From NCBI GenBank assembly GCA_011364925.1, contig RDOA01000003.1, forward strand, positions 72,924-136,923: DNA of 64,000 bases, written 5' to 3'. A program made the position numbers and the translations under genes. The DNA comes from Promethearchaeota archaeon (GTDB taxonomy: Archaea > Asgardarchaeota > Lokiarchaeia > Sigyniarchaeales > SOKP01). Below the pieces are notes generated by a model. The model had not been told where the DNA came from and made no database searches. It saw nothing but the letters and a program-made list of their open reading frames with translations. Numbering within the stretch: the first letter of the stretch is position 1; every line of letters begins with the position of its first letter. Positions 12,347-37,934 of this stretch are shown here, one piece after another.

Positions 12347-12901
12347 ATGAAACCCTTTGAGGAATTTCGATTTAAAATTGTAATCTTAGGAGATGGTGCA
12401 GTAGGTAAAACATCCCTAATTCAGAAATTCACTAAAGGGGTATTTGAAAAAGAATATGTAAAAACAATCGGAGCTCAGTTTTCAAAATACAACAAAAAGA
12501 TTGATGGAGATATAATTAGATTAATATTTTGGGATATAGCAGGTCAGATAGATTTCAATTTTCTAAATCACTTATTTTATAAAGAAGCTAAAGCAGCAAT
12601 TATAGTATTTAGTCTCGAAACTAATGATTTGGGTCAAAAAAGTTTCATCCATATAACAAACTGGTATAAGGAATTAGAAAAGTATTGCGGTACTATTCCT
12701 GTTGTTACATTTGCGAATAAAGTTGATTTGGTGGATAAAAATAGATTAAATGAGTCTAAAATCCAAAAATTAGCCAAGGAAAATAACTTCCTTGGATATT
12801 ATATCACCTCTGCAAAAACAGGAGAGGGCGTAATAGAAGCTTTTAATGCTATTATTGATAAATTATATTTTAAATATAAAAAATTATCATCAATTGATTG
12901 A
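12347..12901 (+). CDS. Rab/Ras-like small GTPase (paralog of 5535..6089)
   Basis: GDGAVGKTS, YVKTIGAQF, WDIAGQ, NKVD, TSAKTG. 184 aa, colinear with the first GTPase, and 100 bp downstream of TPR-longin paralog 3. Confidence 0.9.
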   Translation: MKPFEEFRFKIVILGDGAVGKTSLIQKFTKGVFEKEYVKTIGAQFSKYNKKIDGDIIRLIFWDIAGQIDFNFLNHLFYKEAKAAIIVFSLETNDLGQKSFIHITNWYKELEKYCGTIPVVTFANKVDLVDKNRLNESKIQKLAKENNFLGYYITSAKTGEGVIEAFNAIIDKLYFKYKKLSSID

Positions 12902-24516: not shown

Positions 24517-25017
24517 CTATTCAGGTATGATTATTGATGTATCTTCCTTAATTCTATCAAGGACAATTTGAGTCTTTACTTCTTCCACTCCCGGAAGGTT
24601 TCGCAACTGTTTAATCAGTTCCATTGAATCTTCGTGATCCATACATTTAGCCATAACAAACAGAGGATATTCACCAGTTACTATGTATCCATATTTTATT
24701 TTTTCCATTTTTTCAATTTTACTCTTAATATCCTCAATTGGTTGCTTAGAGTTCACTCTCAAGGAAGCCATAACCATTTCCCGATATCCTAAATAACGAC
24801 AATCTATTAAAGCAACGTATTTTTTAATTAAAAGTTCTTCTAATTTTTGGACTCGAGCTCTAATAGCTGTCGCACTTTTAGGTTTGTCTAAGCCTAACTT
24901 TTCTGACACTTTTTCGGCAATCTTATTTATAGTTATTTTTCCATCCTGTTGTAATAAGTCTAGGATCTCTCTATCAATCTCATCGATTTCAATTGGTTTA
25001 AAATTATCAGCTGCCAT
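24517..25017 (-). CDS. Lrp/AsnC-family transcriptional regulator
   Basis: N-terminal HTH (IDREILDLLQQDGKITINKIAEKV) plus a C-terminal ligand-binding-like alpha/beta domain. 166 aa. Confidence 0.8.
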   Translation of the reverse strand: MAADNFKPIEIDEIDREILDLLQQDGKITINKIAEKVSEKLGLDKPKSATAIRARVQKLEELLIKKYVALIDCRYLGYREMVMASLRVNSKQPIEDIKSKIEKMEKIKYGYIVTGEYPLFVMAKCMDHEDSMELIKQLRNLPGVEEVKTQIVLDRIKEDTSIIIPE

Positions 25018-25257
25018 TATAAAACTCCCAATTTTTGTTATTCAATAATAAAATAGTGCACACTTATTTATAACTTTTTTCACTATGATCTGTGATCAAC
25101 TTAGTTTTTTTTTGTGAATTTTGTGGGATTTATAAATAGAAAAACTATTATTTAAATAGTGGGAAGCATTTTTGATCCACAAGGAATATCAAATTTAAAC
25201 TTTATTTGGTATTAAAACTGAAAAAAATAGAAAAAATATCTAGAGAAGTTGAAAAAA

Positions 25258-25482
25258 ATGGCAGATAAAACACTTAATGCAATAGGTAAAAAATGCCCTA
25301 TGCCTGTTCTCATGACCAAAAAAGAGCTAAAAAACATGAGTTCAGGACAAACTCTTGAATTGGTTGTCGATGATAAAGGAGCATTAAAAGATGTTCCGGC
25401 ACTTATCAGTAAAACCGGTGATTCAATACTCGAGACGAAAGAAGGCGAAAACCAGATAACATTTATGATTAAAAAGGCTTAA
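25258..25482 (+). CDS. tusA: TusA/SirA-like sulfur carrier protein
   Basis: CPMPVLMTKKELK (CPxP motif), ~75 aa. The ATG at 25258 is preferred over the TTG at 25249. Confidence 0.8.
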   Translation: MADKTLNAIGKKCPMPVLMTKKELKNMSSGQTLELVVDDKGALKDVPALISKTGDSILETKEGENQITFMIKKA

Positions 25483-25511
25483 ACCAGAGATTAAAACACG
25501 CGTGATGTACA

Positions 25512-25880
25512 ATGACAACCTATTCTTTTTTTATTAGTACGGAACCTTACAAATTTGAAGCAAGCGATTCGTTAATCGAAATGGGTAAAGCTTTAATAAA
25601 GAAGGGACACAGTATAAAGGGTTTATTTTTCTTTGGAACTGGCGTATATAACATCAAGGGCGATATTAGTAGTGGAAGCTCAATAAGAAACATTCCAAAA
25701 AAGCTTGAAGAGTTTGCGACTGAGAACAAGATTCCAGTGGTTGGATGTTCCACTTGGGTAAGTTTGACTGGGTTAAAAGAACCAGAGTTTATTGAAGGGG
25801 CAACGGAAGAGGGATTAGGCGACTTTTCAAATTGGGCTGTAGAATCAGACAAATTAATTGTATTTGGAGCGGGGTGTTAA
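25512..25880 (+). CDS. DsrE/TusD-like sulfur-relay subunit
   Basis: 122 aa with a DsrE-like pattern (FFISTEPY...LFFFGTGVY...VVGCSTW). Confidence 0.65.
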   Translation: MTTYSFFISTEPYKFEASDSLIEMGKALIKKGHSIKGLFFFGTGVYNIKGDISSGSSIRNIPKKLEEFATENKIPVVGCSTWVSLTGLKEPEFIEGATEEGLGDFSNWAVESDKLIVFGAGC

Positions 25881-26254
25881 AAATAACAATAGAATCTGTA
25901 GTAATAATAACTGACCAAGGACCGATTGGTAAAAATTCAGCTTTAGAAGCAGTCCGTATTGGTTCCGGATTCGTAGCACTCGGTGAATTTGTGGACTGCA
26001 AAATGGTATTTACAGGAGACGCAGTTTACTTGCTCAATAAAAACGCAAAACCAGAAGCGGTTGGAATGGATCCATACGACGAGGTTATGGAAATTGCAGA
26101 CTTATCAGACTTAGAATTATACGTTCTTGATCAAGCGTTACAAGACGCTGGAATGAGTGCTGAAGATTTAGTTGAGTACGAAAATTTGAGCATAATTACA
26201 TACGACGAACTAGTCGATTTAATTGAAAATGCAACTACGAGTTTTAGATTTTAA
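25874..26254 (+). CDS. DsrF/TusC-like sulfur-relay subunit (GTG start at 25874, in frame with track ORF 25832..26254)
   Basis: VLKITIESVVIITDQGPIGKNSALEAVRIGSGF... has a typical DsrE/F fold pattern. A start at 25874 gives a 7-nt overlap (GTGTTAA) with the upstream gene instead of 49 nt. Confidence 0.6.
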   Translation: MLKITIESVVIITDQGPIGKNSALEAVRIGSGFVALGEFVDCKMVFTGDAVYLLNKNAKPEAVGMDPYDEVMEIADLSDLELYVLDQALQDAGMSAEDLVEYENLSIITYDELVDLIENATTSFRF

Positions 26255-26270
26255 ACGAGGAGAATAAATA

Positions 26271-26612
26271 ATGGCTGAAAACAGAAAAATATTGTATTTA
26301 TTTGGATATAGTGAAATAACAGGAACACATTTGAAGCGGTTATTACCCATTTTAAAAGCACAGATTGCCAAAGGGTCTCAAATTGGACTCGTGTTGATTC
26401 ACGACGGCGTAATCGGGATTAACAAAAAAGGGAATATCCCCGAGATGATGGGCGAACTACTTAGCTTGAATGTAGCAATTTACGCAATGATACCTGATTT
26501 GCAAGCTCGAGGGATTGCTCAAGAAAGTATTCACGACAAGGTTAAGCCGATTGGATATGACGAACTAATCGATATTATTGATGTAACACCAAAAATAATA
26601 TCTTGGATGTAA
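26271..26612 (+). CDS. DsrH/TusB-like sulfur-relay subunit
   Basis: 113 aa: KILYLFGYS...GLVLIHDGVIG. It is third in DsrE-F-H order, and a GAGGAG Shine-Dalgarno motif precedes the ATG. Confidence 0.6.
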   Translation: MAENRKILYLFGYSEITGTHLKRLLPILKAQIAKGSQIGLVLIHDGVIGINKKGNIPEMMGELLSLNVAIYAMIPDLQARGIAQESIHDKVKPIGYDELIDIIDVTPKIISWM

Positions 26613-26726
26613 AAAGTCCAAGAAATCAAAATAGATTTTTTGAAAATTAAGGTAATAAAATATTACAAAATTTTGGAATATAAAATAATTAGAAATTAAA
26701 AAAACAAAAAAAAGAAGTGAAAAAAT

Positions 26727-27143
26727 ATGGGAGAAACTATTAACTTTATAGTTAAGGACAAGTCATTCGAAAAATTCGCAATGATGATGCTCCTAGGTAC
26801 CACAGCAGACGCGATGGACACTAAAACCAACTTTTTCTTTACATTTTGGGGTTTAAAATTATTAACTAAGAAATTTAAACCGAAAGTCGCTGGTATGCCT
26901 TTTCCAATGAAGGGAATGGCTGCAGGCATGTTCAAGAAAAAGATGGCTACATTTGGAATCGAAGATCCATGGGGTATGATTAAAGACGCTGTCGAGAATG
27001 GAAACATGAAATTATTTCCATGCCAAATGACAATGGATTTAATGGGGATTAAGAGAGAAGATCTGATTGACATTGTTGAAGAGCCTGTGGGTGCCGCAAC
27101 TTTCTTAGAGATGAGTGAAGGTGGAAAAATAGTCTCACTATAA
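26727..27143 (+). CDS. DsrE/DsrF-like family protein (DsrE2/DrsE_2 type)
   Basis: FAMMMLLGTTADAMDTKTNFFFTFWGLKLL resembles the FFTFWG signature of the DrsE_2 group. 138 aa. Confidence 0.5.
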   Translation: MGETINFIVKDKSFEKFAMMMLLGTTADAMDTKTNFFFTFWGLKLLTKKFKPKVAGMPFPMKGMAAGMFKKKMATFGIEDPWGMIKDAVENGNMKLFPCQMTMDLMGIKREDLIDIVEEPVGAATFLEMSEGGKIVSL

Positions 27144-27157
27144 AATATACATTAAAA

Positions 27158-27171
27158 TTTTTTTTTTTTTT
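27158..27171 (+). terminator. T14 tract between the DsrE2-like gene and hdrC
   Basis: 14 consecutive T, starting 15 nt after the stop at 27143. Oligo-T tracts act as archaeal termination signals. Confidence 0.4.
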
Positions 27172-27196
27172 CAAGATAATAAATTGGTGAATGTAA

Positions 27197-27757
27197 ATGT
27201 CTGATGTAGAAGAACAACAAAAAAATAGAGAATTCAAGACGGATGATGATTTCGATACTGAATTCTTTAAGAGAATAGAAAATAGGTCAAACATTATGAA
27301 ATGTATCCAATGTGGAACGTGTACCGCGAGTTGTGAAAGTGGTAGATGGACTGCATTAAAAACTCGTTCGATTGTACGAAAAGTTGTTCTCGGAGATTTA
27401 TCAGTACTGGATGACCCGGATATTTGGCTCTGTACGACCTGTTATCAGTGTTATGAGCGATGTCCACGGGATGTAAAACCAACAGATGTTATTATGGAAT
27501 TGCGAAATTACGCAACCAAACGAGGAAATATCTCACCTAACCATAGAGCTGTTGTTGGTTACTTAAAAAATTTTGGCCACGCAGTACCGATAAATGATGA
27601 AGTAAGAAAAAGACGAGTCGAATTAGGTTTAGAAGAATTACCTCCAACTGCTTTTAAATACAAGCAAGAAGGAGATGATAAAGACTTAAAAAAGATTGAA
27701 AAATATATGTTTGATTTACCTCCCGTTAAGGAGGAAAAAAAAGGAGAGGAGAAATAA
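27197..27757 (+). CDS. hdrC: heterodisulfide reductase subunit C-like (2x[4Fe-4S])
   Basis: CIQCGTCTASCESGR and CTTCYQCYERCPRDV. It sits immediately upstream of hdrB. Confidence 0.8.
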   Translation: MSDVEEQQKNREFKTDDDFDTEFFKRIENRSNIMKCIQCGTCTASCESGRWTALKTRSIVRKVVLGDLSVLDDPDIWLCTTCYQCYERCPRDVKPTDVIMELRNYATKRGNISPNHRAVVGYLKNFGHAVPINDEVRKRRVELGLEELPPTAFKYKQEGDDKDLKKIEKYMFDLPPVKEEKKGEEK

Positions 27758-27760
27758 ATA

Positions 27761-28675
27761 ATGGTTAAAGAACATACATTTGCTTTTTTCCTCGGATGTA
27801 TCATGCCCAATAGATATCCTGCGATTGAGAAAGCAACTAAATTCGTGATGGAGAAGCTTGGATATGAAATATTGGAAATGGAGAGGGCTACTTGCTGTCC
27901 AGCTCCAGGAGTATTCCGTTCATTCAATAAATTTGATTGGATGGTTGCGGGAGCTAGAAATTTATGCATTGCTGAACAATTAGATGCTGATATTCTTACT
28001 GTTTGTAATGGATGTTTTGGTACACTCCAAGAAATTAACAAACATCTTAAAGAAAACGAGGAACATCGAATACAAGTAAATGAGAAACTGAAACTCCTCG
28101 GAGACTACGAATTCAAGGGGATAATTGACGTTCGTCATGTTGCCGAAGTACTTGGATACGAAGTTGGACCTTGGGGGATAGAAGACCATATAGTAAGAAA
28201 GCTGAATTTGAAAGCTGCAATTCATTACGGGTGCCACTTTCTAAAACCAACCAGAATTAGAGAAATTGAGAGTTCAGAAGGACCTACAATAATCGAAGAT
28301 TTCGTTGAAGCGTTAGGAATAGAGTCCGTTCGGTTCAAAGAGCAACTTACTTGCTGTGGAGCGGGTGGTGGCGTAAAAGCTTATTCTGGCGATGCGAGCA
28401 TGACCATATTCGGGGAGAAAATGAAAAATATTGATGAAGTTAAACCTGATATTATATTAGATATCTGTCCATTCTGTCACTTACAGTTTGAGACAGGTCA
28501 AGATTATCTCAACAAAAATAAGGAATGTAATTACGATTATCCAGTGTTCCATCTTTCGCAAGTTTTAGCATATTGTATGGGAATGGATGTAGACTTTATT
28601 GGCCTTCAGTATCAAATGATGGGCAGGGACTTTATTTTTGGTGGAGAAGATGTTAAAAAAGAGGAGGCAATTTAA
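27761..28675 (+). CDS. hdrB: heterodisulfide reductase subunit B-like (two CCG domains)
   Basis: ATCCPAPG and LTCCGAGGG CCG motifs plus CPFCHLQF. 304 aa. Confidence 0.85.
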   Translation: MVKEHTFAFFLGCIMPNRYPAIEKATKFVMEKLGYEILEMERATCCPAPGVFRSFNKFDWMVAGARNLCIAEQLDADILTVCNGCFGTLQEINKHLKENEEHRIQVNEKLKLLGDYEFKGIIDVRHVAEVLGYEVGPWGIEDHIVRKLNLKAAIHYGCHFLKPTRIREIESSEGPTIIEDFVEALGIESVRFKEQLTCCGAGGGVKAYSGDASMTIFGEKMKNIDEVKPDIILDICPFCHLQFETGQDYLNKNKECNYDYPVFHLSQVLAYCMGMDVDFIGLQYQMMGRDFIFGGEDVKKEEAI

Positions 28676-30715
28676 ATGACTGTTGAAGAAAAAGTCAAAA
28701 AAACTGACGAAATTAAGGGCGGGGCAGATTCTAAAGAAGCAGAAGAAGAGCCTAGAATTGGTGTTTTTATTTGCCACTGTGGACACAATATTGCTGGTAC
28801 GGTTGATGTTGCCAAAGTGGCAGAATACGCCAAAACTTTACCTAACGTGGTTAAGGCCGAACATTATATGTTCATGTGTAGCAAACCGGGAGTTCAAATG
28901 CTTAAAGATTCGATTGAAGAACTTGGAGTTAATAGAACAGTTGTGGCTTCATGCTCAAAAAATCAACATGGGAGAACCTTTGCTAACGCGATCCAAGAAG
29001 AGGGATTAAATAAACATAGACACCAACAAGTTAACATAAGAGAATTTAATAGTTGGGTTCATCAAAAAGAGAAAGATAAAGCCACAGAAAAAGCGAAAAA
29101 GTTAGTAGAAGCGGGCGTTAACCGAGCAAGGAAATTAGAGGATGTTGAAACTCGCAGAATTGCGACTACTAAAGCTGCTCTGGTTATTGGTGCTGGAATT
29201 GCGGGACTTCGCGCTAGTTATGATTTAGCTGAATTAGGGATACCAGTTTACTTAATAGAGAGGTTATCTACAATTGGAGGGCACATGACTCAATTAAATA
29301 AAACGTTCCCGACACTTGAATGCCCTCAGTGTTCCATAAGTCCATTAACTAATGGAGTTGCGAACCATCCGCTAGTAGAACTTTATACAAACGCTCAGAT
29401 TAAAAATGTTGGTGGCTCTATGGGGAATTTCGAAGTGGAAGTCGAGATTAAACCTCGATATGTTAAGGATAATTGTACTTCATGCGGTGAATGTTCAGCT
29501 CATTGTCCTGTTGAAGTGCCAAGCGAGTGGGATAGTGGAATGTCTATACGTAAAGCGATATATAAGGCTTATCCACAAGCGATACCTGCGACTTTTGTCA
29601 GAGATAAGAAGAACTGTATTGAATGCAACACCTGTGTTAACATATGTCCGGTCAAAGCCGTTGATTTTTCGATGGAGACTGAGACCAAAACGTTCAAAGT
29701 CGGCTCTATTGTTGTAGCTGCGGGTTATGACGAATACGATCCTTCAGAAATCGAACCTTATCACTACGGACAAAAAGGATTCGAAGATGTCATTACACAG
29801 TTGAAATTGGAACGAATGTTAGCTCCAGGATCACTTACAAACAGTCAAGTTTTAAGACCTTCAGATGCAAAAATTCCGAAGAGTGTTGTAATGATCCAGT
29901 GTGTTGGGAGTCGAAATGACCAAGTTGGAAACGAATATTGCACAGGAGTCTGTTGTAAGTTTGCGATTAAGAACGCAAGAATTGTTAAAGAGATGTATCC
30001 TGACACTGACGTGACTATTTGTTATATTGATGTGCGAACTCCAGGGCTCAACTTTGAGGAGTTATATAAATCGGCTCAGGAAGTTGGAGTGAGATTTATC
30101 AGAGGGCGCCCATCAGAGATTGTGAGAGATCCGATATCTGGGAATCTAAAGGTAATCGTTGAAGATACTTTAAGTATGACTCCATTACAGTTGAAAGCTG
30201 ACATGGTGGTATTAAGTGCTGCGATGGTTCCACCTGAAGGAATTGGACCACTTGGGTCAAAACTTCAAGTATTAAGGTCAAAAGAAGGATTTTTGAAGGA
30301 ATTTCATATCAAAATGAACCCTACATTAAGTAGCAAAGGTGGAATTTTTATAGCTGGTGCGATTCAAGGTCCTAAGGATATTTCTGAATCGGTGGCTCAA
30401 GCAGGGAATGCCGCTGCGATCGCTGCTGCACCGTTGGTAAAAGGTTATATCGAAAAAGAAATGCTTATTCCTTCAGTTGATCTTGACCTATGCGTTAGAT
30501 GTGGATTATGCAAAACTGTTTGCGCTCCAGCTGCAATACAAATTAACGACGATGGAACGCCGATGGTGAACGAAGTCGCTTGCAAGTCATGTGGTATGTG
30601 TATGCCTGCATGTCCTACAGGAGCAATACAATTATTAAACTTTAGCGATAAACAACTATTAGATGAAATTATACCAATAGCAGGCGGAGGTGCTGTATGC
30701 GAAGATGAGCTGTGA
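28676..30715 (+). CDS. hdrA: heterodisulfide reductase subunit A (FAD, multiple [4Fe-4S])
   Basis: N-terminal IGVFICHCGHNIAG, FAD fold ALVIGAGIAGLRASYDLAELG, and ferredoxin motifs CTSCGECSAHCP, CIECNTCVNICP, CVRCGLCKTVC and CKSCGMCMPACP. Confidence 0.9.
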   Translation: MTVEEKVKKTDEIKGGADSKEAEEEPRIGVFICHCGHNIAGTVDVAKVAEYAKTLPNVVKAEHYMFMCSKPGVQMLKDSIEELGVNRTVVASCSKNQHGRTFANAIQEEGLNKHRHQQVNIREFNSWVHQKEKDKATEKAKKLVEAGVNRARKLEDVETRRIATTKAALVIGAGIAGLRASYDLAELGIPVYLIERLSTIGGHMTQLNKTFPTLECPQCSISPLTNGVANHPLVELYTNAQIKNVGGSMGNFEVEVEIKPRYVKDNCTSCGECSAHCPVEVPSEWDSGMSIRKAIYKAYPQAIPATFVRDKKNCIECNTCVNICPVKAVDFSMETETKTFKVGSIVVAAGYDEYDPSEIEPYHYGQKGFEDVITQLKLERMLAPGSLTNSQVLRPSDAKIPKSVVMIQCVGSRNDQVGNEYCTGVCCKFAIKNARIVKEMYPDTDVTICYIDVRTPGLNFEELYKSAQEVGVRFIRGRPSEIVRDPISGNLKVIVEDTLSMTPLQLKADMVVLSAAMVPPEGIGPLGSKLQVLRSKEGFLKEFHIKMNPTLSSKGGIFIAGAIQGPKDISESVAQAGNAAAIAAAPLVKGYIEKEMLIPSVDLDLCVRCGLCKTVCAPAAIQINDDGTPMVNEVACKSCGMCMPACPTGAIQLLNFSDKQLLDEIIPIAGGGAVCEDEL

Positions 30716-31154
30716 AGATATAGAGCCAGAAGTAATGGAAAAGATCCAAGATATTGTTGTTTTTATGTGTAACGAATGTGGACAAGGATCGGCAAATACT
30801 GCTGGTGTAGCAAGAATGGCGTATAATCCCGCAATCCGAATCGTTCGAGTCCAATGCACGGGTCAAGTAGGACCTATTCAAATAATGGATGCTTTGAATA
30901 ACGGTGCTGATGCGGTTGCTTGCGTTGGTTGTTGTCTTGGAGCGTGTCATTTCTTTAACGGAAATATTTTATCGATGCATAGAATCAAACTGCTGAAGAA
31001 AGTATTTAAAGAATTAGGGTATAGCGATCAGTTTGTTAATCAATACACATCACGAGCCGCGGAAGGAGAAACAGCTGTAGGAGATTTTGAGGATTTAGTG
31101 ATACGATTGTCTAATGCAATTAGAGAGGAGGGGACAATAAAAGATGGATGTTAG
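30705..31154 (+). CDS. mvhD: MvhD-like (methyl-viologen-reducing hydrogenase delta subunit family) [2Fe-2S] protein
   Basis: VVFMCNECGQGSANTAG...VRVQCTGQV...GADAVACVGC. The ATG at 30705 follows GGAGGTG (30687-30693) and overlaps the hdrA stop. Confidence 0.8.
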   Translation: MSCEDIEPEVMEKIQDIVVFMCNECGQGSANTAGVARMAYNPAIRIVRVQCTGQVGPIQIMDALNNGADAVACVGCCLGACHFFNGNILSMHRIKLLKKVFKELGYSDQFVNQYTSRAAEGETAVGDFEDLVIRLSNAIREEGTIKDGC

Positions 31155-32379
31155 AATTTTTCAATTTAATGGCTGCAATAAATGTTTCAACGAGACGATT
31201 CTCCTTAACGGTGAATCAAAATACAAGATTGAATTCATTGAAGATCCGAAGAATTGGAAAGAGATGAAAACTGATGTTTCTGTTATAACAGGATACCTTT
31301 TACCTGAAGATAAAGATACTTTAGAAAAAATTAAATCAAATTCGAAACGAGTCGTTGGTTACGGAAATTGTACTACGATGGGAGGAATATTTGCTTTAGC
31401 TAATCAAAGAGGCTATGAAGTATCCCCATTGAGTAGTTTCATCGAAGAAACAGAGAAAGTAAATGGTTGTCTGGGAGAAATTGAAGAATTGAGTGTAGCG
31501 ATTAACAGTGAGGCGGCTCCTAAATTACAGAATTTATGTGCGGTTTGCGCAAGAGAAACGACTTGCGATTACTTAGAAAGTGTTCATCGTCAAATAGAAT
31601 TAGAAGACGAGACAACATGTTTTAACGATCTCGGATATCTTTGTAATGGTTTTGTTGCTAAAGAATGTAAAGAGCGATGTATCGATTATAACGCACCTTG
31701 TAGAGGATGTAAACCAATTATAGATCGTTCAGGGATTAGAATGTTAGGAATGTTCGGTACTCTAATGGGCAACATTGAGGTTGCGACAGAGCATTCGGAA
31801 TTAGGCGCTACTGATAAGCTTGCAGATCGAGACGATGATATTACAGATAGTTTACCTGATGTTTTAGGCAATTTCTTTAGATTTACTCTATCGACTTCAG
31901 GACTTCCCAGAGGTAGAATTCCTTCGTCAGGAAATATACTTAACGATGTCTTTACTGGAAGATTAATAGAAGAGTTACCTCTGATTTCTGGGTTATTAGG
32001 TGGGAATCGTTCAATTTCCCTAACGCTAAAAATTATAGAAACATACGAGACCGCGAATAGCATTGAAGTAAGTGAACAAACAAAAAAATATCGTAAAGAA
32101 TTGTTAGATTTGGAAAGCCAGTTGCAGGAAGCTATTAAAAGCAAAGATCCTAAGCAGTATAAAAAGATTACAGACGAAATCAGAAAAATAGGCGGAAATA
32201 TGAATTTATCAAACGTATATTTCGGAGGATTCAAAGCTCAGATCGACGATAAAGACAATTTTGAAGATTATAAAGCCCACGTTTTTGATGTGGTTGAAGG
32301 AACCTATAAGAATGGTTCAGTAGAATTTACGATTGATCCAATCGGTATTGTAAAAGAAATAAAAATTAAAGAGGGATAA
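31144..32379 (+). CDS. MvhG-like [NiFe]-hydrogenase small-subunit homolog with a ~135-aa extra C-terminal region
   Basis: FNGCNKC, GYGNCTTMGGIFALAN, NLCAVCARE, YLCNGFVAKECKERCIDYNAPCRGC and GNFFRFTLS parallel my recollection of MvhG cluster-binding motifs, in the same order. No large-subunit gene is adjacent. Confidence 0.65.
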   Translation: MDVRIFQFNGCNKCFNETILLNGESKYKIEFIEDPKNWKEMKTDVSVITGYLLPEDKDTLEKIKSNSKRVVGYGNCTTMGGIFALANQRGYEVSPLSSFIEETEKVNGCLGEIEELSVAINSEAAPKLQNLCAVCARETTCDYLESVHRQIELEDETTCFNDLGYLCNGFVAKECKERCIDYNAPCRGCKPIIDRSGIRMLGMFGTLMGNIEVATEHSELGATDKLADRDDDITDSLPDVLGNFFRFTLSTSGLPRGRIPSSGNILNDVFTGRLIEELPLISGLLGGNRSISLTLKIIETYETANSIEVSEQTKKYRKELLDLESQLQEAIKSKDPKQYKKITDEIRKIGGNMNLSNVYFGGFKAQIDDKDNFEDYKAHVFDVVEGTYKNGSVEFTIDPIGIVKEIKIKEG

Positions 32380-32381
32380 AC

Positions 32382-34844
32382 ATGAGTTTCGAATTATTAA
32401 GGAGCGAAATTATTGACGCAGGTTTATGTCAAGGTTGCGGTTTATGTGCTGGTTCGTGCAAACACATTAATATGGAAATTGCCAGGCCGGTATTAAAAGA
32501 CTATTGCATCCTTGAAAGAGATGGTGAAGATTGTGGAAAATGTTACCAATCTTGTCCACAAGTGATCCAGAAAAAGTTTAAGGAAAAACAACCATTAGCC
32601 ATATATTCGTTAAGAACAAAAAATCCTGAAATTTTAGCTAAAGCTTCTAATGGAGGATTTGTCACAACTATCGCTAAAGAACTGTTAGAAAGTGAATCTC
32701 TGAAAGAGATTGTGATGGTTCAAGAAGATGACGAAAAACCAAAAGCAGAGATAGTAACGAATCCCGATGAAGTTATTAAAAAAGCAGGAGTCGTCTATGG
32801 TCGTTCTGGGGTACTTGAGCGTTTAATAGATGTTACTGGAGAAACCTTTGACCCTATTGGAATAGTGGGAGTACCCTGTGAAATGAGAGGAGCTGCGGAG
32901 ATCGAAGAAGAAATGAATAGAGAAATCTTGAAGATCGGGCTTTTCTGTAGTTCCCAAATGCGAACAGCTGAGACTGATAAAGGTTTAGTCTGTTCTCCAT
33001 GCTGTAACGGTTGCCCCTCAGGTGTTAATGCTCAAGGGTACGTGTCATTAATTCGTCAGGGAAAATACCAAGAAGCCGTGGATTTAATACGAGAAAATAA
33101 TCCCTTACCGTCCATCTGTGGAAGAATTTGTACAAACGAATGTGAATACGGATGCACATTAATTGGAGACGATCATCCTGTTGCAATCAGAGAACTAAAA
33201 AAATTCGTAACAGAATGGGAAATGGAACATGGGAAGAAGAAGAAGAAAAAGGTTGCTAAAAAGAATGGTAAAAAAGTGGCTATAATTGGAGCGGGACCAG
33301 CGGGATTAACCGCTGCGCATTACTTAGCAAATAGAGGATATTCACCAACTATTTTTGAAAAGACAGATCAAACAGGAGGTATGCTTCGATTTGGAGTCCC
33401 ACAATTCAGATTACCTAATTATGTATTAGATTACGATGTAGAATCAATAACAGATGCAGGTGTTGAGCTCGTTCTTAACAAACCTTTAGGACCTGATATG
33501 ACGATCAATGATTTAAAAAAGGAAGGTTTTGAAGCAATTTTTATTGCAACTGGTCAGTATAAACCAAGAACTTTGCACTTAGAAGGAGAAGACTTACCTA
33601 ATGTTTACGTAGCTATTAACTTCCTTATGGACAGGAAGTATAGATATTGGGAAAATAAAGAAGAATTTAATGGTAAAACAATTGGCATCATTGGGGGAGG
33701 TCCGGTTGCTGTAGATGTTGCTCAAACTGCGCTGAGACTTGGAGCGGAAAAAGTTCACCTCGTTGACATCATGAACGAAAAAGAACTCGAATTAGTCCTA
33801 AAAGATATCCCTGAAAATGAATACGAATATATGAAGTATCATTTTGCCACATCCACTTCTAAAATAACGCAAAACAAAGACGGAAAGTTAGTTTTGAACT
33901 GCTACAATATCGAATGGGGTGCTCCTGACAAGACGGGTAGACGACCTCTAAATAAAGTTGAGGGTTCTGATTACGAGATACCCATTGATGTTATTATAAT
34001 GGCAGTAGGACAAGCTGTTGACTTTGATTTAATCGATGTAGCAACCGAAAATAAGATTGAAAAAGAGCGAAATAGGATCAAGATAAATCCGGTAACGTTT
34101 GAAACAAGTATTCCCGGAGTGTTTGCTGGAGGTGATATCGTTTCAAACTCTAAAGCTGTCGCGATTGCTGGTATTGCTCATGGGAAAGAAGCTGCGATTT
34201 CAATAGACAGATATTTGAACGGTGAGGATTTAGAAGAAGGCAGAAATTATCGAAGTCAAATGTTTTTTACTGGTCCTCGTAAACCACCTAAAGATTACTC
34301 TTTAAAACCAGAAAATTTAGAGGATGCTACTGAAGAAATACAGTGGACATTCGATGAAATTGATGAAATGTTCAACGAAGATATGGCTTTAAGGGAGGCA
34401 AGGAGATGTTTGAGTTGTAACCACTTCTGTTCCCATTGTCAAGATTTTCCTGCCATATATTCTGACGTTACGGCAGGTGAAGTTGGTTCAGAAAAAGGTT
34501 ATACAACGGTAGTTGCTTGGACAGAAAAAGGTAAAGAACTTGTTGATAACGCGATCGCGAAGGGATTATTTGACCAAGGAAAGGTTAACGAAGGAGAGTT
34601 AAAAACGGCAATAAACCTTAAATCGAAACGAGAACTTATGAATTTCGAAAAAACTCCACGAACTCAGGTATTAGACTACGTAAAAATCCAAGGACCAAGT
34701 ACTATTAGCGATATAGCTCGAAATACTGGACTTGAGCAGAAAAAGGTCAGGTATGAAGCACTTCGATTAGTTCAGTTAATGGAATTTGAAATGAAAGCAG
34801 ATCCTGATATGACCGAACCGCTGTTTTCTATTGTATGTGATTAA
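32382..34844 (+). CDS. fusion oxidoreductase: 2x[4Fe-4S] + FrhB/FdhB-like domain interrupted by a GltD-like FAD/NAD(P) module + C-terminal wHTH-like tail
   Basis: CQGCGLCAGSC/CGKCYQSCP; FrhB-like NGGFVTTIAKELL and GVPCEMRGA...IGLFCS; GltD-like NPLPSICGRICTNECEYGC, KVAIIGAGPAGLTAAHYLANRGY and IGIIGGGPVAVDVAQTA; a return to FrhB-like SDVTAGEVGSEKGYTTVVAWTEKGKELV; tail STISDIARNTGLEQKKVRYEALRLVQL. Confidence 0.7.
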   Translation: MSFELLRSEIIDAGLCQGCGLCAGSCKHINMEIARPVLKDYCILERDGEDCGKCYQSCPQVIQKKFKEKQPLAIYSLRTKNPEILAKASNGGFVTTIAKELLESESLKEIVMVQEDDEKPKAEIVTNPDEVIKKAGVVYGRSGVLERLIDVTGETFDPIGIVGVPCEMRGAAEIEEEMNREILKIGLFCSSQMRTAETDKGLVCSPCCNGCPSGVNAQGYVSLIRQGKYQEAVDLIRENNPLPSICGRICTNECEYGCTLIGDDHPVAIRELKKFVTEWEMEHGKKKKKKVAKKNGKKVAIIGAGPAGLTAAHYLANRGYSPTIFEKTDQTGGMLRFGVPQFRLPNYVLDYDVESITDAGVELVLNKPLGPDMTINDLKKEGFEAIFIATGQYKPRTLHLEGEDLPNVYVAINFLMDRKYRYWENKEEFNGKTIGIIGGGPVAVDVAQTALRLGAEKVHLVDIMNEKELELVLKDIPENEYEYMKYHFATSTSKITQNKDGKLVLNCYNIEWGAPDKTGRRPLNKVEGSDYEIPIDVIIMAVGQAVDFDLIDVATENKIEKERNRIKINPVTFETSIPGVFAGGDIVSNSKAVAIAGIAHGKEAAISIDRYLNGEDLEEGRNYRSQMFFTGPRKPPKDYSLKPENLEDATEEIQWTFDEIDEMFNEDMALREARRCLSCNHFCSHCQDFPAIYSDVTAGEVGSEKGYTTVVAWTEKGKELVDNAIAKGLFDQGKVNEGELKTAINLKSKRELMNFEKTPRTQVLDYVKIQGPSTISDIARNTGLEQKKVRYEALRLVQLMEFEMKADPDMTEPLFSIVCD

Positions 34845-34879
34845 ATTTAAACCAAAATAAAATCAAGGAGAGAAAAAAT

Positions 34880-35119
34880 ATGAATTTTGACCAAGAATTA
34901 AATGTCTGCGGATTAGTCTGTCCCGTTCCAGCGCTTAAAACCAAAAAACAATTAATGAAGATGCGCCCTGGAACCGTGTTAAAGGTAATAACAGACTATA
35001 AACCTGCAAGTGAATCTGTTCCAAGAGATTTAGCTAAACAAACTAAGCACAAACACTTAGGAACAGAATTTCTCGAAGACGAAGAACAGTGGTATATGTA
35101 TTTTGAAGCTGTAAAATAG
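34880..35119 (+). CDS. second TusA/SirA-like sulfur carrier protein
   Basis: CGLVCPVPALKTKKQLMKM (CPxP motif). 79 aa, and a GGAGAG Shine-Dalgarno motif lies upstream. Confidence 0.75.
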   Translation: MNFDQELNVCGLVCPVPALKTKKQLMKMRPGTVLKVITDYKPASESVPRDLAKQTKHKHLGTEFLEDEEQWYMYFEAVK

Positions 35120-35335
35120 GTTCACAGAAAGTTAAAATTATAATATTTTATAATTCTTTTTTTATTAATATTGCTATAGAATTCACCATGTAATGTAGTG
35201 TATTATGAGTTTTAGATTGGAACCATATTAACGCTCTAACTTTTATGAATTTCAATCTCAGATGTAAATATTGATATTATTAACATCGTTATATGGATTA
35301 ATAGAGAATCATCAGAAACTATTAATTTGAAAAAC

Positions 35336-36928
35336 ATGGCAAAACCTAATATTATCTTAATATTAAATGACGACATGGGATATTCAGATTTAGGTTGCTA
35401 TGGAGGAGAAGTTCAAACTCCTAATTTAGATAATTTAGCAAAAAACGGGATTAGATTTACTAATTTCTATAATACGGCTCGGTGTTCTCCTTCACGGGCT
35501 TCGCTATTGACAGGACTACATCCTCATCAGACGGGTATAGGAGTTTTGGTTAACAATGATGGTCCAGAAGGATATGCCGGTTCGTTAAACAATAAATGTG
35601 TTACTATCGCAGAAGTCTTGAGAGAAGATGGATACAAGACATATGTAAGTGGTAAATGGCACGTCTCGAATTCTCCTTACAAAGAAGCTGATAGCTGGCC
35701 AACTAAACGCGGATTTGACCATCATTATGGCATCCTCCAAGGAGCTACTGATTATTTCTATCCTATTAAGTTAAGAAGAGATGGAAAAAACATTGAAGAG
35801 GAAGCGAGAAACGATCCTAATTATTATCTAACAGATGCCATTAGCGACCAAGCCGTAGCTTTCCTTAAGGAGCACCATCAAAATTTTCCAGAAGACCCAT
35901 ACTTCCTATATATTGCGTACACTGCCCCTCATTGGCCGCTTCACGCTAAAGAATCGGATATCAAAAAATATGAAGGACGGTTTATCGTAGGATGGGACAT
36001 TCTTCGCGAAGAAAGACTCCAAAGAATGAAAAAATTAGGTCTTTGTGATGAAAATTTAAAGCTTTCTGAACGCGATCCCACCCAACGAGCATGGGATTTA
36101 ACTAAAAACAAAGAGTGGGAAGCTCGTAGAATGGCTGTATATACTGCTCAAATTGACAATATGGACCAAGGCATAGGTCGAATTATTGCGGAAGTTAAAA
36201 AACAAAATCAGTTGGAGAATACTGTGATCGTTTTTCTTTCGGATAATGGTGGTTGTGCGGAACCTATGGGTCGTGCCATGAAAAAATTGACAAATTTAGA
36301 TGAGTGGAAGAGTGGTCGTATAAAAACCAAGGATGGTCGTGATATTCTTTATGGGAATAGGAAGTCCGTTATTCCAGGACCCGCTAACACTTACGCAAGC
36401 TATGGTACAGCTTGGGCAAATCTTTCAAATACCCCTTTCCGGAAGTATAAACATTGGGTACATGAAGGTGGAATTGCCACTCCATTAATTATTCATTGGC
36501 CTAATGGCATAAAGTTTAAAGGGAAGATCTGTCATCAACCAGGTCAACTCCCCGATATCATGGCGACAATTATTGAAATTACACATTCTCCTTATCCTGA
36601 GAAATACAATGGAGACAAAATTCTACCTTTGGAAGGACAAAGCTTAGCTTTAAGCTTTTCTAGTACCACCTCTATTGAACGAACACTATTTTTTGAGCAC
36701 GAAGGGAACGCAGCGGTAATACAAGGAAACTGGAAATTAGTTAAAGAATATCCCTATTCATGGGAATTGTATGATAGAGAATCTGACCGAACTGAACTAG
36801 ATAATATTATCTCGAGATATCCCGTAAAAGCTCGAGAATTGGAATTAGCATTTCACCAATGGGCTAAACGCTGTGGCGTTATTCCATGGGATTTATACCT
36901 TACAAATAACAGATTTATCCAATATTAA
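35336..36928 (+). CDS. arylsulfatase (Cys-type formylglycine sulfatase family)
   Basis: LNDDMGYSDLGCYG and the CSPSRASLLTG (C-x-P-x-R) motif. The ATG at 35336 is preferred over the TTG at 35327. Confidence 0.85.
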   Translation: MAKPNIILILNDDMGYSDLGCYGGEVQTPNLDNLAKNGIRFTNFYNTARCSPSRASLLTGLHPHQTGIGVLVNNDGPEGYAGSLNNKCVTIAEVLREDGYKTYVSGKWHVSNSPYKEADSWPTKRGFDHHYGILQGATDYFYPIKLRRDGKNIEEEARNDPNYYLTDAISDQAVAFLKEHHQNFPEDPYFLYIAYTAPHWPLHAKESDIKKYEGRFIVGWDILREERLQRMKKLGLCDENLKLSERDPTQRAWDLTKNKEWEARRMAVYTAQIDNMDQGIGRIIAEVKKQNQLENTVIVFLSDNGGCAEPMGRAMKKLTNLDEWKSGRIKTKDGRDILYGNRKSVIPGPANTYASYGTAWANLSNTPFRKYKHWVHEGGIATPLIIHWPNGIKFKGKICHQPGQLPDIMATIIEITHSPYPEKYNGDKILPLEGQSLALSFSSTTSIERTLFFEHEGNAAVIQGNWKLVKEYPYSWELYDRESDRTELDNIISRYPVKARELELAFHQWAKRCGVIPWDLYLTNNRFIQY

Positions 36929-37034
36929 TTAGGTACTAAAATTGTAAATAACACTAAATTCATTATTTATTCACATTCTTAAATTATAAATTCAAATGTA
37001 ATTTTATAAAATTAATAGCGCTAATGTGATAAAC

Positions 37035-37889: not shown

Positions 37890-37934
37890 AAATCTAGATT
37901 ATAGTAAAGAAATAGAAAAATAAAAGTGAGAAAG

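What the first reader, a model, noticed from the sequence alone, without database searches (positions are those of the whole stretch)
30705..32379. MvhD and an MvhG-like hydrogenase small subunit without any [NiFe] large subunit, plus a novel C-terminal extension
**Seen in the sequence**
- ORF 31144..32379 carries, in order, Cys motifs that match my recollection of MvhG: GC..C, GYG.C...GG, NLC.VC.RE and the PCRGC block, then G.F..FTL.
- It continues for ~135 further residues (from about ...LIEELPLISGLLGG to the end) that I cannot assign.
- No MvhA-like large-subunit gene is present in the cluster. The next gene is the FrhB::GltD fusion.

**Inference**
- The small-subunit-like protein may have been recruited as a pure iron-sulfur wire between a flavoprotein dehydrogenase and HdrA/MvhD. 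That would replace H2 as the electron donor.
Basis: partly seen in the sequence, partly recalled or inferred. Interest (0 to 1): 0.55.

Follow-up and report, generated by a model that had tools for sequence, protein, structure and literature searches.

The report
Fossil hydrogenase wired to heterodisulfide reductase
A Lokiarchaeal gene encodes a hydrogenase small subunit fused to a shrunken, cysteine-free remnant of the catalytic large subunit, and it most likely acts as an iron-sulfur wire from an NAD(P)H/F420H2 flavoprotein into a heterodisulfide-reductase complex, so genome surveys should not count it as a hydrogenase.

Summary
ORF 31144..32379 (411 aa) aligns to MvhG/VhuG and keeps all 12 cysteines needed for three [4Fe-4S] clusters. 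MvhD lies just upstream with an 11-nt overlap. A FrhB::GltD fusion follows 3 nt downstream. No large-subunit or Hyp gene was found in the 64-kb window.

The new point is the "unassignable" C-terminal ~150 residues. They are a miniaturised [NiFe] large subunit that has lost all Ni-Fe cysteines (RxCGxC has become GLLGGN, and the protein ends before DPCxxC). Three tests agree:
- profile versus PDB sequences: FrhA, E=1.7e-4;
- hhalign versus MvhA: E=1e-5, with 0 of 200 shuffles reaching the score;
- Foldseek on a pLDDT-93 model: the top hits are large subunits.

The domain is under strong purifying selection (dN/dS 0.03-0.06).

The operon TusA-DsrE-DsrE-DsrH-DrsE_2-HdrCBA-MvhD-this gene-FrhB::GltD-TusA is syntenic in about 60 Lokiarchaeial species, including cultured MK-D1. 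There the gene is listed as "MvhG", while the true MvhA sits elsewhere with its own MvhG.

The most likely function is a dead-hydrogenase scaffold and wire that feeds NAD(P)H/F420H2 electrons through MvhD to HdrA. This parallels Elp-Hdr. It is a new variant of a known kind, and no biochemistry was done.

The parts
24517..25017 (-). Lrp/AsnC-family regulator, divergently placed upstream of the operon
   Evidence: tblastn synteny shows it conserved at this position in most related loci. Pfam HTH_AsnC/AsnC_trans_reg is recorded on the ortholog in L001 and L076.
25249..25482 (+). TusA-like sulfur carrier (CPMP motif)
   Evidence: ORF listed. The orthologous genes in L001 and L076 carry PF01206 TusA.
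25512..25880 (+). DsrE/TusD-like protein
   Evidence: Pfam DsrE at 4.3e-11; syntenic.
25832..26254 (+). Second DsrE/DsrF-like protein. The true start is probably near 25886, judging from the gene calls in homologous loci.
   Evidence: ORF. Orthologs are called as 122-126 aa DsrE in L001 and L076.
26271..26612 (+). DsrH/TusB-like protein
   Evidence: Orthologs carry PF04077 DsrH; syntenic.
26727..27143 (+). DrsE_2 family protein
   Evidence: Pfam DrsE_2 at 1.1e-22.
27197..27757 (+). HdrC (2x[4Fe-4S] ferredoxin-like)
   Evidence: Pfam Fer4_9/Fer4_17/Fer4_8. The MK-D1 ortholog DSAG12_01145 is annotated HdrC.
27761..28675 (+). HdrB (two CCG domains)
   Evidence: Pfam CCG at 4e-36 with two stretches.
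28676..30715 (+). HdrA, canonical length (679 aa), with FAD domain plus inserted and C-terminal ferredoxin domains
   Evidence: Pfam Fer4 families at 260-328 and 598-653, and FAD/NAD_binding at 168-212.
30705..31154 (+). MvhD ([2Fe-2S] connector). It overlaps the hdrA stop by 11 nt.
   Evidence: Pfam FlpD at 5.7e-31; NCBIfam VhuD at 7.4e-26; sequence.
31144..31518 (+). MvhG-like protein, residues 1-125: flavodoxin-like small-subunit domain with the four proximal-cluster cysteines (C11, C14, C76, C109)
   Evidence: Oxidored_q6 over residues 22-110. The cysteines are invariant in 33 of 33 members. AF2 pLDDT is about 90 here, and the top fold hit is MvhG 5odi_E at E=6e-8.
31519..31914 (+). MvhG-like protein, residues 126-257: medial and distal [4Fe-4S] region (C132, C135, C159, C167, C175, C179, C186, C189) ending in GNFFRFTL
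   Evidence: Residue-by-residue alignment to MvhG 9sw2_E and 5odc_E; cysteine census. The AF2 model is poor in this region (pLDDT below 50).
31915..32379 (+). MvhG-like protein, residues 258-411 plus stop: vestigial [NiFe] large-subunit domain with no cysteines. The L1 RxCGxC motif is replaced by GLLGGN, and the protein ends before the DPCxxC position.
   Evidence: Profile versus PDB: FrhA 6qgt_A at E=1.7e-4, with 9 large subunits in the same register. hhalign versus MvhA: E=1e-5, score 44.4 against a shuffle maximum of 22.4. AF2 pLDDT 93.3. Foldseek top hits are large subunits, TMq 0.5-0.6. dN/dS is 0.03-0.06.
32382..34844 (+). FrhB::GltD flavoprotein: N-terminal 2x[4Fe-4S] domain, FrhB_N, an inserted GltD/NfnB-like NAD(P)H:FAD module with Fer4_20, FrhB_C, and a C-terminal tail that looks like a winged helix
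   Evidence: Pfam FrhB_FdhB_N at 75-146, Fer4_20 at 190-284, Pyr_redox_2 at 297-596 and FrhB_FdhB_C at 666-733. NCBIfam glutamate-synthase small-subunit-like and FpoF/FrhB hits, all below their cutoffs.
34880..35119 (+). Second TusA-like protein (CPVP motif) closing the operon
   Evidence: ORF. Orthologs in L001 and L076 carry PF01206 TusA.

Best explanation
ORF 31144..32379 is a catalytically dead, single-chain descendant of a soluble (group 3, Mvh-like) [NiFe] hydrogenase. Its first ~257 residues are a small subunit that still binds three [4Fe-4S] clusters. Its last ~150 residues are a miniaturised large subunit. That remnant keeps the helix pair around the former L1 motif and the beta-hairpin that precedes the former C-terminal motif, but it has lost all four Ni-Fe cysteines and about two thirds of the polypeptide. 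The protein is co-translated with MvhD and the FrhB::GltD flavoprotein. I infer that it forms the electron-input arm of an HdrABC complex. In this model a hydride from NAD(P)H (GltD module) and/or F420H2 (FrhB module) enters a flavin. Single electrons then pass along the iron-sulfur chain of the MvhG-like subunit to the [2Fe-2S] cluster of MvhD and on to the bifurcating FAD of HdrA. From HdrA one branch goes to ferredoxin. The other goes through HdrBC to a disulfide or persulfide, probably one presented by the TusA/DsrE-family carriers encoded in the same operon. The reaction may run in the reverse, confurcating direction in vivo. The vestigial large-subunit domain is inferred to be structural: it would cap the proximal-cluster face and/or provide a docking surface.

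Shown here: homology of both halves, loss of the catalytic ligands, retention of the cluster ligands, purifying selection, conserved synteny, and a separate true Mvh locus in MK-D1.

Inferred: complex formation, the electron path, donor and acceptor identities, and direction.
For: - **Small-subunit identity.** Supported by Pfam, NCBIfam, PDB sequence hits and fold search.
- **Cluster ligands.** Twelve cluster cysteines are conserved in 32-33 of 33 members.
- **Extension is a large-subunit relic.** hmmsearch of the extension profile against PDB sequences puts FrhA first (E=1.7e-4). Eight further large subunits (FrhA, SHI alpha, MvhA, HyhL, MbhL) align in the same register over the L1 region. 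hhalign against a 16-sequence MvhA alignment gives E=1e-5 and score 44.4, while 200 column shuffles gave mean 15.0 and maximum 22.4. A second collinear piece matches the beta-hairpin of MvhA at 401-414. The AF2 model of the extension has pLDDT 93.3. Its Foldseek hits are [NiFe] large subunits or NuoD, aligning 120-147 of 154 residues at TMq 0.5-0.6.
- **Dead active site.** There is no cysteine in the extension (sequence).
- **Selection.** dN/dS of the extension is 0.03-0.06, as low as the cluster-binding region.
- **Operon.** Overlapping or abutting genes, and the same gene order in about 60 Lokiarchaeial species.
- **Constant partner.** A divergent locus, L068, pairs the protein with a plain FrhB lacking GltD, so FrhB is the constant partner.
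- **Not a split operon.** MK-D1 has MvhA DSAG12_03951 with its own MvhG DSAG12_03954, away from the ortholog DSAG12_01149.
- **Precedent.** In ElpABC-HdrABC a truncated non-catalytic FdhA accompanies an FrhB-type F420H2 oxidase and an MvhD homologue.
Against: - There is no biochemical or structural evidence for the complex. Complex prediction was not possible with these tools.
- The AF2 model of the medial/distal cluster region is poor (pLDDT below 50).
- The sequence signal for the relic rests mainly on one 53-65-residue stretch. Single-sequence scores against an MvhA HMM are marginal (best E=0.004 in a small database). Foldseek E-values are weak (best 0.035). Pfam NiFeSe_Hases was not hit by the extension at E<=10.
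- In Frh and Mvh both FrhB and MvhD dock near the distal cluster, so it is unclear whether the proximal and medial clusters lie on the pathway.
- The FrhB family does not by itself prove F420 use.
- Locus L064 (Harpocratesius) has only a 142-aa ferredoxin-plus-tail remnant in place of FrhB::GltD, so the flavoprotein is not universally required.
Confidence: 0.7

Rival explanations
1. Split hydrogenase: the MvhG-like protein is the functional small subunit of a genuine MvhA encoded elsewhere, so the cluster still oxidises or evolves H2.
For: Lokiarchaeia do encode group 3c [NiFe] hydrogenases. The proximal-cluster cysteines that face the large subunit are retained.
Against: In the one complete genome checked (MK-D1), MvhA has its own adjacent MvhG at a distant locus. 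By homology, the fused relic occupies the large-subunit position. The family lacks the ~40-residue segment that true MvhG proteins carry after the GLANL motif. The nearest true MvhG relatives are only about 27-34% identical (E >= 3.8e-13, against 1e-29 or better within the family) and are each followed by a real large-subunit gene. Genome-wide co-occurrence could not be tested here.
Confidence: 0.07
2. The C-terminal extension is an unrelated helical/beta domain, for example a dimerisation or docking module, and only resembles the large-subunit core by chance or convergence.
For: Pfam gives only weak unrelated hits (DUF272, DISC1_C). Foldseek E-values are above 0.01. Only about 150 of about 450 residues would be retained.
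Against: Three independent methods pick the same family, in the same register and in collinear order. The hhalign score is about 11 sd above the column shuffles. The more divergent family members (P0128, P0129: GRPAEE...I.SR.(F/Y)G) look more like the L1 motif (GRPxEExPRIxxRICGxC) than the window protein does, and they score best against the MvhA HMM.
Confidence: 0.13
3. A decaying remnant: the gene is a non-functional leftover of a lost hydrogenase, carried along in the hdr operon.
For: The active-site ligands are gone and most of the large subunit is deleted.
Against: dN/dS is 0.03-0.2 in all three regions. Length is constant at about 411 aa in more than 100 clusters at 70-95% identity. All 12 cluster cysteines are invariant or nearly so. 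Synteny spans about 60 species.
Confidence: 0.02
4. The composition is the same, but the MvhG-like protein is mainly a scaffold or electron store, and FrhB::GltD passes electrons directly to the HdrA N-terminal domain and MvhD. This is the situation in Elp-Hdr, where ElpA is off-pathway.
For: In the Elp-Hdr cryo-EM structure, electrons run from ElpB through the HdrA N-terminal clusters to ElpC, and the truncated FdhA is not described as part of the path. FrhB::GltD has its own extra N-terminal 2x[4Fe-4S] domain.
Against: All three clusters of the MvhG-like part are strictly conserved, which is more than a pure scaffold would need. In Mvh-Hdr, MvhG is the direct donor to MvhD (established structure 5ODC; fold and sequence match).
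Confidence: 0.08

Closest known systems
[quoted passage not shown]
   Same: MvhD, a canonical four-domain HdrA, HdrB with two CCG domains and HdrC are all present. The small-subunit part is most similar to MvhG/VhuG in both sequence and fold and has the same 12 cluster cysteines.
   Different: There is no MvhA gene. The large subunit is reduced to a fused ~150-aa cysteine-free relic. A FrhB::GltD flavoprotein takes the place of the catalytic subunit. The operon also carries TusA/DsrE/DsrH genes rather than methanogenesis genes.
ElpABC-HdrABC of Methanothermobacter (Nomura et al., Nature 2025, PMC12350162), and the non-catalytic Molybdop/FdhB Hdr clusters of ANME (PMC12054007)
   Same: An Hdr donor arm built from an FrhB-family flavoprotein, an MvhD homologue and a degenerate, cofactor-less relic of a former catalytic subunit. 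It replaces H2 with a soluble hydride carrier.
   Different: The relic there is a truncated formate dehydrogenase FdhA. Here it is a hydrogenase: an intact small subunit plus a vestigial large subunit in one chain. FrhB here has a GltD/NfnB-type NAD(P)H module inserted. The host is a non-methanogenic Asgard archaeon, and the disulfide substrate is unknown.
FlxABCD-HdrABC (Flox-Hdr) of Desulfovibrio and syntrophs (Ramos et al. 2015, cited)
   Same: A pyridine-nucleotide-oxidising flavoprotein module linked through an MvhD-like subunit to HdrABC in non-methanogens. It has been proposed for Lokiarchaeia as an alternative to Mvh.
   Different: In the MK-D1 table the Flox subunits are sulfhydrogenase beta/gamma-like and FrhB-related, and they lie in other clusters (DSAG12_03218-23, 03717-26). 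The cluster studied here is listed separately and contains no FloxA or FloxB. Flx sequences were not compared directly.
Complex I NuoB/NuoD, and Fqo/Fpo with fused B-C-D subunits (derived from group 4 [NiFe] hydrogenases)
   Same: Small- and large-subunit homologues that lost the Ni-Fe cysteines and became non-hydrogenase electron-transfer modules. They are sometimes fused into one polypeptide. NuoD and NuoB chains also appear among the fold hits.
   Different: Those descend from membrane-bound group 4 enzymes, keep a full-size NuoD that forms the quinone site, and retain only one cluster in NuoB. Here the ancestor is a soluble group 3 enzyme, three clusters are kept, and the large subunit is cut to about one third.
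FrhAGB (group 3a F420-reducing hydrogenase)
   Same: A small subunit partnered with an FrhB flavoprotein. The best sequence hit of the relic is FrhA.
   Different: FrhG is not among the sequence hits of the small-subunit part. There is no FrhA, and MvhD and Hdr are present.

Membership tests
[NiFe]-hydrogenase small subunit (Pfam Oxidored_q6; MvhG/VhuG type) | Flavodoxin-like N-terminal domain with four Cys ligands of the proximal [4Fe-4S] cluster | tested here: met
   PF01058 at 41.2 bits against a cutoff of 27. C11, C14, C76 and C109 are invariant in 33 of 33 members. Fold hit to 5odi_E at E=6e-8.
[NiFe]-hydrogenase small subunit (Pfam Oxidored_q6; MvhG/VhuG type) | Eight further Cys for the medial and distal [4Fe-4S] clusters, in the MvhG pattern | tested here: met
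   Aligned to 9sw2_E and 5odc_E. C132, C135, C159, C167, C179, C186 and C189 occur in 33 of 33 members and C175 in 32 of 33.
[NiFe]-hydrogenase small subunit (Pfam Oxidored_q6; MvhG/VhuG type) | Equivalog-level score to VhuG/MvhG | tested here: not met
   NF045875 scores 41 bits against a cutoff of 450. Identity to true MvhG-like proteins is about 25-28%.
[NiFe]-hydrogenase small subunit (Pfam Oxidored_q6; MvhG/VhuG type) | Pairs with a catalytic large subunit encoded alongside | tested here: not met
   No large-subunit gene occurs in the operon, the window or about 60 syntenic loci. By contrast, true MvhG relatives P0150 and P0154 are followed by NiFeSe_Hases genes.
[NiFe]-hydrogenase large subunit (Pfam NiFeSe_Hases) | N-terminal L1 motif RxCGxC, which provides two Ni-Fe ligands | tested here: not met
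   The aligned position reads GLLGGN (consensus G-l-l-G-G) and the extension has no Cys.
[NiFe]-hydrogenase large subunit (Pfam NiFeSe_Hases) | C-terminal DPCxxC motif, which provides two Ni-Fe ligands | tested here: not met
   The protein ends about 5 residues after the hairpin aligned to MvhA 401-414. MvhA has DPC at 454-456.
[NiFe]-hydrogenase large subunit (Pfam NiFeSe_Hases) | Homology or fold of the core (helices around L1, hairpin before L5) | tested here: met
   hmmsearch E=1.7e-4. hhalign E=1e-5 with a shuffle control. Foldseek TMq 0.5-0.6 to FrhA, SHI alpha and MvhA. This holds for a fragment only: PF00374 itself was not hit.
Mvh-Hdr type electron-bifurcating complex | MvhD plus HdrA, HdrB and HdrC encoded together | tested here: met
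   Pfam FlpD, CCG x2 and Fer4/FAD domains on contiguous, overlapping genes.
Mvh-Hdr type electron-bifurcating complex | H2 as electron donor through a Ni-Fe site | tested here: not met
   No Ni-Fe ligands exist anywhere in the operon. Enzyme activity is not testable here.
Mvh-Hdr type electron-bifurcating complex | Physical complex and flavin-based bifurcation | not testable with these tools
   This needs purification, cryo-EM or multimer prediction.
Elp-Hdr type (F420H2-dependent donor arm with a non-catalytic relic) | FrhB/FdhB-family flavoprotein next to MvhD/ElpC and HdrABC | tested here: met
   FrhB_FdhB_N and FrhB_FdhB_C domains on the adjacent gene. A plain FrhB sits in divergent locus L068.
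Elp-Hdr type (F420H2-dependent donor arm with a non-catalytic relic) | ElpA, a truncated FdhA (molybdopterin-family relic) | tested here: not met
   No molybdopterin-family gene is present. The relic here is hydrogenase-derived.
FlxABCD-HdrABC | FlxA/FlxB (sulfhydrogenase gamma/beta-like) NADH-oxidising subunits | not tested
   No Flx reference sequences were available. The MK-D1 table lists Flox genes in other clusters and not in this one.

The most novel reading that the evidence does not exclude
This would be the first recognised case of a soluble, group 3 [NiFe] hydrogenase converted into a non-hydrogenase redox module. The conversion shrank the large subunit to a cysteine-free ~150-aa cap and fused it to an intact three-cluster small subunit. 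It would be a soluble counterpart of the step from group 4 hydrogenase to complex I, and a hydrogenase-derived parallel to ElpA. The module is conserved across Lokiarchaeia, including cultured MK-D1, and is annotated as MvhG/FrhG. Some genomic inferences of 'Mvh-Hdr' H2 metabolism in Asgard archaea may therefore rest on a protein that cannot touch H2 and that instead links NAD(P)H/F420H2 to TusA/DsrE-borne sulfur and ferredoxin.
Probability: 0.5. Interest if true: 0.7.

Novelty: new variant of a known kind. Interest (0 to 1): 0.58.

Why it matters
Asgard archaea are central to models of eukaryote origins that depend on hydrogen and sulfur syntrophy. Those models lean on genome annotations of Mvh-Hdr. 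This work shows that one of the best-conserved Lokiarchaeial hdr operons carries a hydrogenase fossil rather than a hydrogenase. The fossil is coupled to an NAD(P)H/F420-type flavoprotein and to sulfur-carrier proteins.

Four consequences follow:
- Annotation: hits to MvhD, MvhG or FrhG do not imply H2 metabolism.
- A concrete, purifiable candidate complex is identified in cultured MK-D1 and L. ossiferum.
- There is now a second, independent example, after ElpA/FdhA, of a catalytic subunit kept as a non-catalytic scaffold in Hdr donor arms.
- It suggests how soluble hydrogenases can be turned into general redox wiring.

Tried and rejected
- **Motif scan.** I scanned all six frames of the window for RxCGxC, DPCxxC, RxEGH and the HypC N-terminus and found nothing.
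- **Pfam on other ORFs.** Scans of 30 other large window ORFs found no hydrogenase or Hyp families.
- **Pfam on the extension alone.** Only weak unrelated hits came back (DUF272, DUF6809, IR1-M). I treat these as coiled-coil or low-information noise.
- **MvhA HMM against single family sequences.** Results were marginal (best E=0.004 in an 863-sequence test set, with one shuffled sequence at 0.11). This test does not stand on its own.
- **Search for a split-gene intermediate** (extension as a separate ORF). P0137 and P0151 are fragments on contigs of about 1 kb or less, with chimeric or continuous upstream sequence. P0139 looks like an assembly chimera. None gives evidence for a stand-alone version.
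- **FlxC as a precedent.** I asked whether Flx/Flox FlxC is a small-subunit homologue. The MK-D1 table calls FloxC 'FrhB-related', and a separate cluster holds a 'FrhG-like oxidoreductase'. Pereira 2011 is not held in the library.
- **Literature.** Searches for an earlier description of MvhG without MvhA, or of a degenerate large subunit in Asgard archaea, found only the uninterpreted MK-D1 table entry.
- **Not possible here.** Genome-wide presence of mvhA and hyp genes in the window's own organism could not be tested, because only the window is available. Multimer structure prediction was also not possible.

Full report
**1. What is at the locus**

The window has about 33% G+C. Its proteins find their closest relatives in MAGs named Promethearchaeota/Lokiarchaeota.

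On the + strand, 25249 to 35119 holds a tightly packed operon:
- TusA-like (25249-25482)
- DsrE (25512-25880)
- a second DsrE/F-like gene (to 26254)
- DsrH (26271-26612)
- DrsE_2 (26727-27143)
- HdrC (27197-27757)
- HdrB (27761-28675; two CCG domains, E=4e-36)
- HdrA (28676-30715)
- MvhD (30705-31154; FlpD, E=5.7e-31)
- the 411-aa ORF (31144-32379)
- an 820-aa FrhB_N / GltD / FrhB_C protein (32382-34844)
- a second TusA-like gene (34880-35119)

hdrA and mvhD overlap by 11 nt, as do mvhD and the 411-aa ORF. The next gene starts 3 nt after the ORF's stop.

**2. Checking the observation**

The ORF matches Oxidored_q6 above Pfam's threshold (41.2 bits against 27). It matches NCBIfam VhuG weakly (1.3e-10, far below the equivalog cutoff). 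It also matches the MvhG chains of solved Mvh-Hdr complexes (9sw2_E at 1e-11, 5odc_E at 4e-10), with residue-level alignment from about residue 34 to 256.

In alignments with family members and true MvhG proteins, four N-terminal cysteines (C11, C14, C76, C109) and eight further cysteines (C132, C135, C159, C167, C175, C179, C186, C189) are invariant or nearly so. The protein can therefore still bind the proximal, medial and distal [4Fe-4S] clusters.

The family differs from true MvhG in two ways. It lacks a ~40-residue segment after the GLANL motif, and it continues about 150 residues beyond the point where MvhG ends. A full-length AF2 model has a confident N-terminal domain and C-terminal part and a poor middle (pLDDT below 50). 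Its best PDB fold match is MvhG 5odi_E (E=6e-8).

No large-subunit signature occurs in any frame of the window. Pfam scans of the other large ORFs found no hydrogenase or Hyp protein.

**3. The C-terminal extension is a vestigial large subunit**

I built a profile of residues 258-411 from 21 family members and tested it in several ways.

- **Profile against PDB sequences.** The best hit is the F420-reducing hydrogenase large subunit FrhA (6qgt_A, E=1.7e-4). Eight other [NiFe] large subunits follow: FrhA from other species, sulfhydrogenase alpha, MvhA 9sw2_F, HyhL and MbhL. All align extension positions ~10-64/74 with large-subunit residues ~43-108, the helix pair that carries the L1 motif RxCGxC. 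The register is easy to read: family GRLIEELPLISGLLGGNRSISLTLKIIETYE against FrhA GKTMEQVPKIASRVCGICPIAHTLASTEAME.
- **Profile-profile comparison.** Against 16 MvhA sequences obtained through a true Mvh locus, hhalign gives probability 82%, E=1e-5 and score 44.4 for the same stretch. Two hundred column-shuffled controls gave mean 15.0, sd 2.6 and maximum 22.4, and the reversed profile scored 19.8. A second, collinear sub-optimal alignment pairs FTIDPIGIVKEIKI with the MvhA hairpin Y-x-D-x-x-G-I-x-x-x-V-N-L at 401-414 (E=0.054). By eye, the preceding VEGTYKNGSVEF lines up, with identical spacing, with the VEAPRGTLFHHY motif of MvhA (consensus).
- **Structure.** The extension folded alone gives a confident model (pLDDT 93.3, pTM 0.88). 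Foldseek against the PDB returns almost only [NiFe] large subunits and their complex-I homologues at the top: 6qgr_A (TMq 0.60, 142 columns), 9nez_D, 5odc_F (MvhA), 5xf9_D, 7z0s_E, 7t2r_D, 5yxy_B and 7q5y_B. The E-values are weak, 0.035 at best.

The extension contains no cysteine, and the protein stops before the DPCxxC position. All four Ni-Fe ligands are therefore gone.

The more divergent members (P0128, P0129: GRPAEE...I.SR.(F/Y)G) look more like the ancestral motif and score best against an MvhA HMM. Those single-sequence scores are marginal.

The relic is not decaying. dN/dS is 0.03-0.06 in five pairwise comparisons, as low as in the cluster-binding region. Its mean identity among close members is 75%.

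**4. Conservation and context**

The family is narrow. At 50% clustering there are only a handful of full-length representatives. Scores then drop sharply to ordinary MvhG/FrhG-like proteins of 250-330 aa without the extension.

A scan of one genome per species found 71 loci, nearly all named Promethearchaeota. A few MAGs carry the names Hodarchaeota, Hermodarchaeota or Odinarchaeota. The set includes the cultured Promethearchaeum syntrophicum MK-D1 and Harpocratesius repetitus. The order AsnC(-) / DsrE-DsrE-DsrH-DrsE_2-HdrC-HdrB-HdrA-MvhD-MvhG-like-FrhB::GltD is kept in essentially every locus long enough to show it (gene calls).

Two informative variants exist:
- In the divergent locus L068, the partner is a plain 347-aa FrhB without the GltD insert.
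- In L064, only a 142-aa ferredoxin-plus-tail remnant follows.

FrhB, not GltD, is therefore the older partner.

**5. Is it a split operon?**

In the MK-D1 supplementary table, the ortholog is DSAG12_01149. [quoted passage not shown] The genuine MvhA (DSAG12_03951) lies elsewhere with HdrB, HdrC and its own MvhG, DSAG12_03954.

The nearest non-family relatives, P0150 and P0154, sit in ordinary MvhD-MvhG-MvhA clusters. Together with the fused relic, this makes a trans-acting MvhA unlikely. A genome-wide co-occurrence test could not be run.

**6. How it most likely works (inference)**

The model rests on analogy with two solved complexes:
- Mvh-Hdr: small-subunit clusters, then the MvhD [2Fe-2S] cluster, then the HdrA FAD.
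- Elp-Hdr: an FrhB-type F420H2 oxidase, an MvhD homologue, and a truncated non-catalytic FdhA.

The donor arm here would work as follows. FrhB::GltD takes a hydride from NAD(P)H at the GltD/NfnB-like module; its second dinucleotide motif reads GGGPVA. It may also take a hydride from F420H2 at the FrhB module. Electrons then pass into the three-cluster MvhG-like wire, and the relic caps the face that once held the Ni-Fe site. From HdrA, electrons would split between ferredoxin and the HdrBC site.

The co-operonic TusA, DsrE, DsrH and DrsE_2 genes suggest that the HdrB substrate is a carrier-bound persulfide or disulfide. A recent preprint on another Asgard archaeon proposes the same substrate, with H2 as donor. 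Direction, donor and acceptor are all untested.

**7. Comparison with what is known, and novelty**

The closest relatives by descent are Mvh/Frh hydrogenases. The closest by working principle are Elp-Hdr, the non-catalytic Molybdop/FdhB Hdr clusters of ANME, Flx-Hdr, and the NuoB/NuoD pair of complex I, including fused Fqo B-C-D proteins. Modular reuse of the group 3 small subunit has also been noted in hybrid [FeFe]/[NiFe] enzymes.

The gene arrangement was tabulated for MK-D1 without comment. Within the searchable library I found no description of the relic, or of a group 3 hydrogenase turned into a non-hydrogenase.

I rate it a new variant of a known kind. Confidence is about 0.7 for the overall reading and about 0.85 that the extension is a large-subunit relic.

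Noticed in passing
window 25249-27143 and 34880-35119: Two TusA-like genes and DsrE, DsrE/F, DsrH and DrsE_2 genes bracket the hdr genes in one operon. This is conserved in about 60 species. It suggests the HdrB substrate is a carrier-bound persulfide or disulfide rather than CoM-S-S-CoB. A 2025 preprint on another Asgard archaeon proposes the same.
   Followed up: partly
window 32382-34844; L068 10781-11824; L064 11283-11711: In the FrhB::GltD protein, the whole GltD/NfnB-like module is inserted between the FrhB N and C domains. It also has an N-terminal 2x[4Fe-4S] domain, a lysine-rich linker (HGKKKKKKVAKKNGKK), and a conserved C-terminal tail that looks like a winged helix. The tail persists in the plain-FrhB variant (L068) and in the 142-aa remnant of Harpocratesius (L064).
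   Followed up: partly
MK-D1 genome (Imachi 2020 Supplementary table, DSAG12_03218-03223): A second orphan small-subunit homologue, labelled 'FrhG-like oxidoreductase' (sulfhydrogenase delta-like), sits between HdrC and HdrA next to FloxA and FloxB, again with no large subunit listed. I did not check whether it also carries a relic domain.
   Followed up: no
L074 1734-3495: A 239-aa small-subunit-like gene (P0153) follows an HdrA-like polyferredoxin protein. It is followed in turn by a divergent large-subunit-like ORF (weak NiFeSe_Hases hit, E=4e-4) that keeps a WCGTC motif. The contig ends before the C-terminal motif. It could be a very divergent hydrogenase or another degenerating one.
   Followed up: no
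L046 10001-11410: One family member spans about 59 more codons than the usual 411, which suggests an insertion. I did not examine it.
   Followed up: no
window 5535-6089 and 12347-12901, with 932-4464, 6076-8004 and 10171-12246: Two Ras/Roc-family small GTPases (E about 1e-39) are each flanked by large TPR proteins. This is an Asgard-typical, eukaryote-like signature.
   Followed up: no
window 48333-52532 (-) and 57568-62318: A 1399-aa ORF and four consecutive ORFs of 212-469 aa have no Pfam match at E<=1e-5.
   Followed up: no
window 35327-36928, 37026-38780 and 43222-44451: A sulfatase lies immediately downstream of the operon and is also present in L076. Two tandem enoyl-CoA hydratase paralogs and an acyl-CoA dehydrogenase lie nearby.
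   Followed up: no
window 19413-21071 (-) and 21839-23452 (-): Two NosD/beta-helix repeat proteins with a transmembrane anchor lie upstream. A similar beta-helix gene occupies the same position in L001.
   Followed up: no
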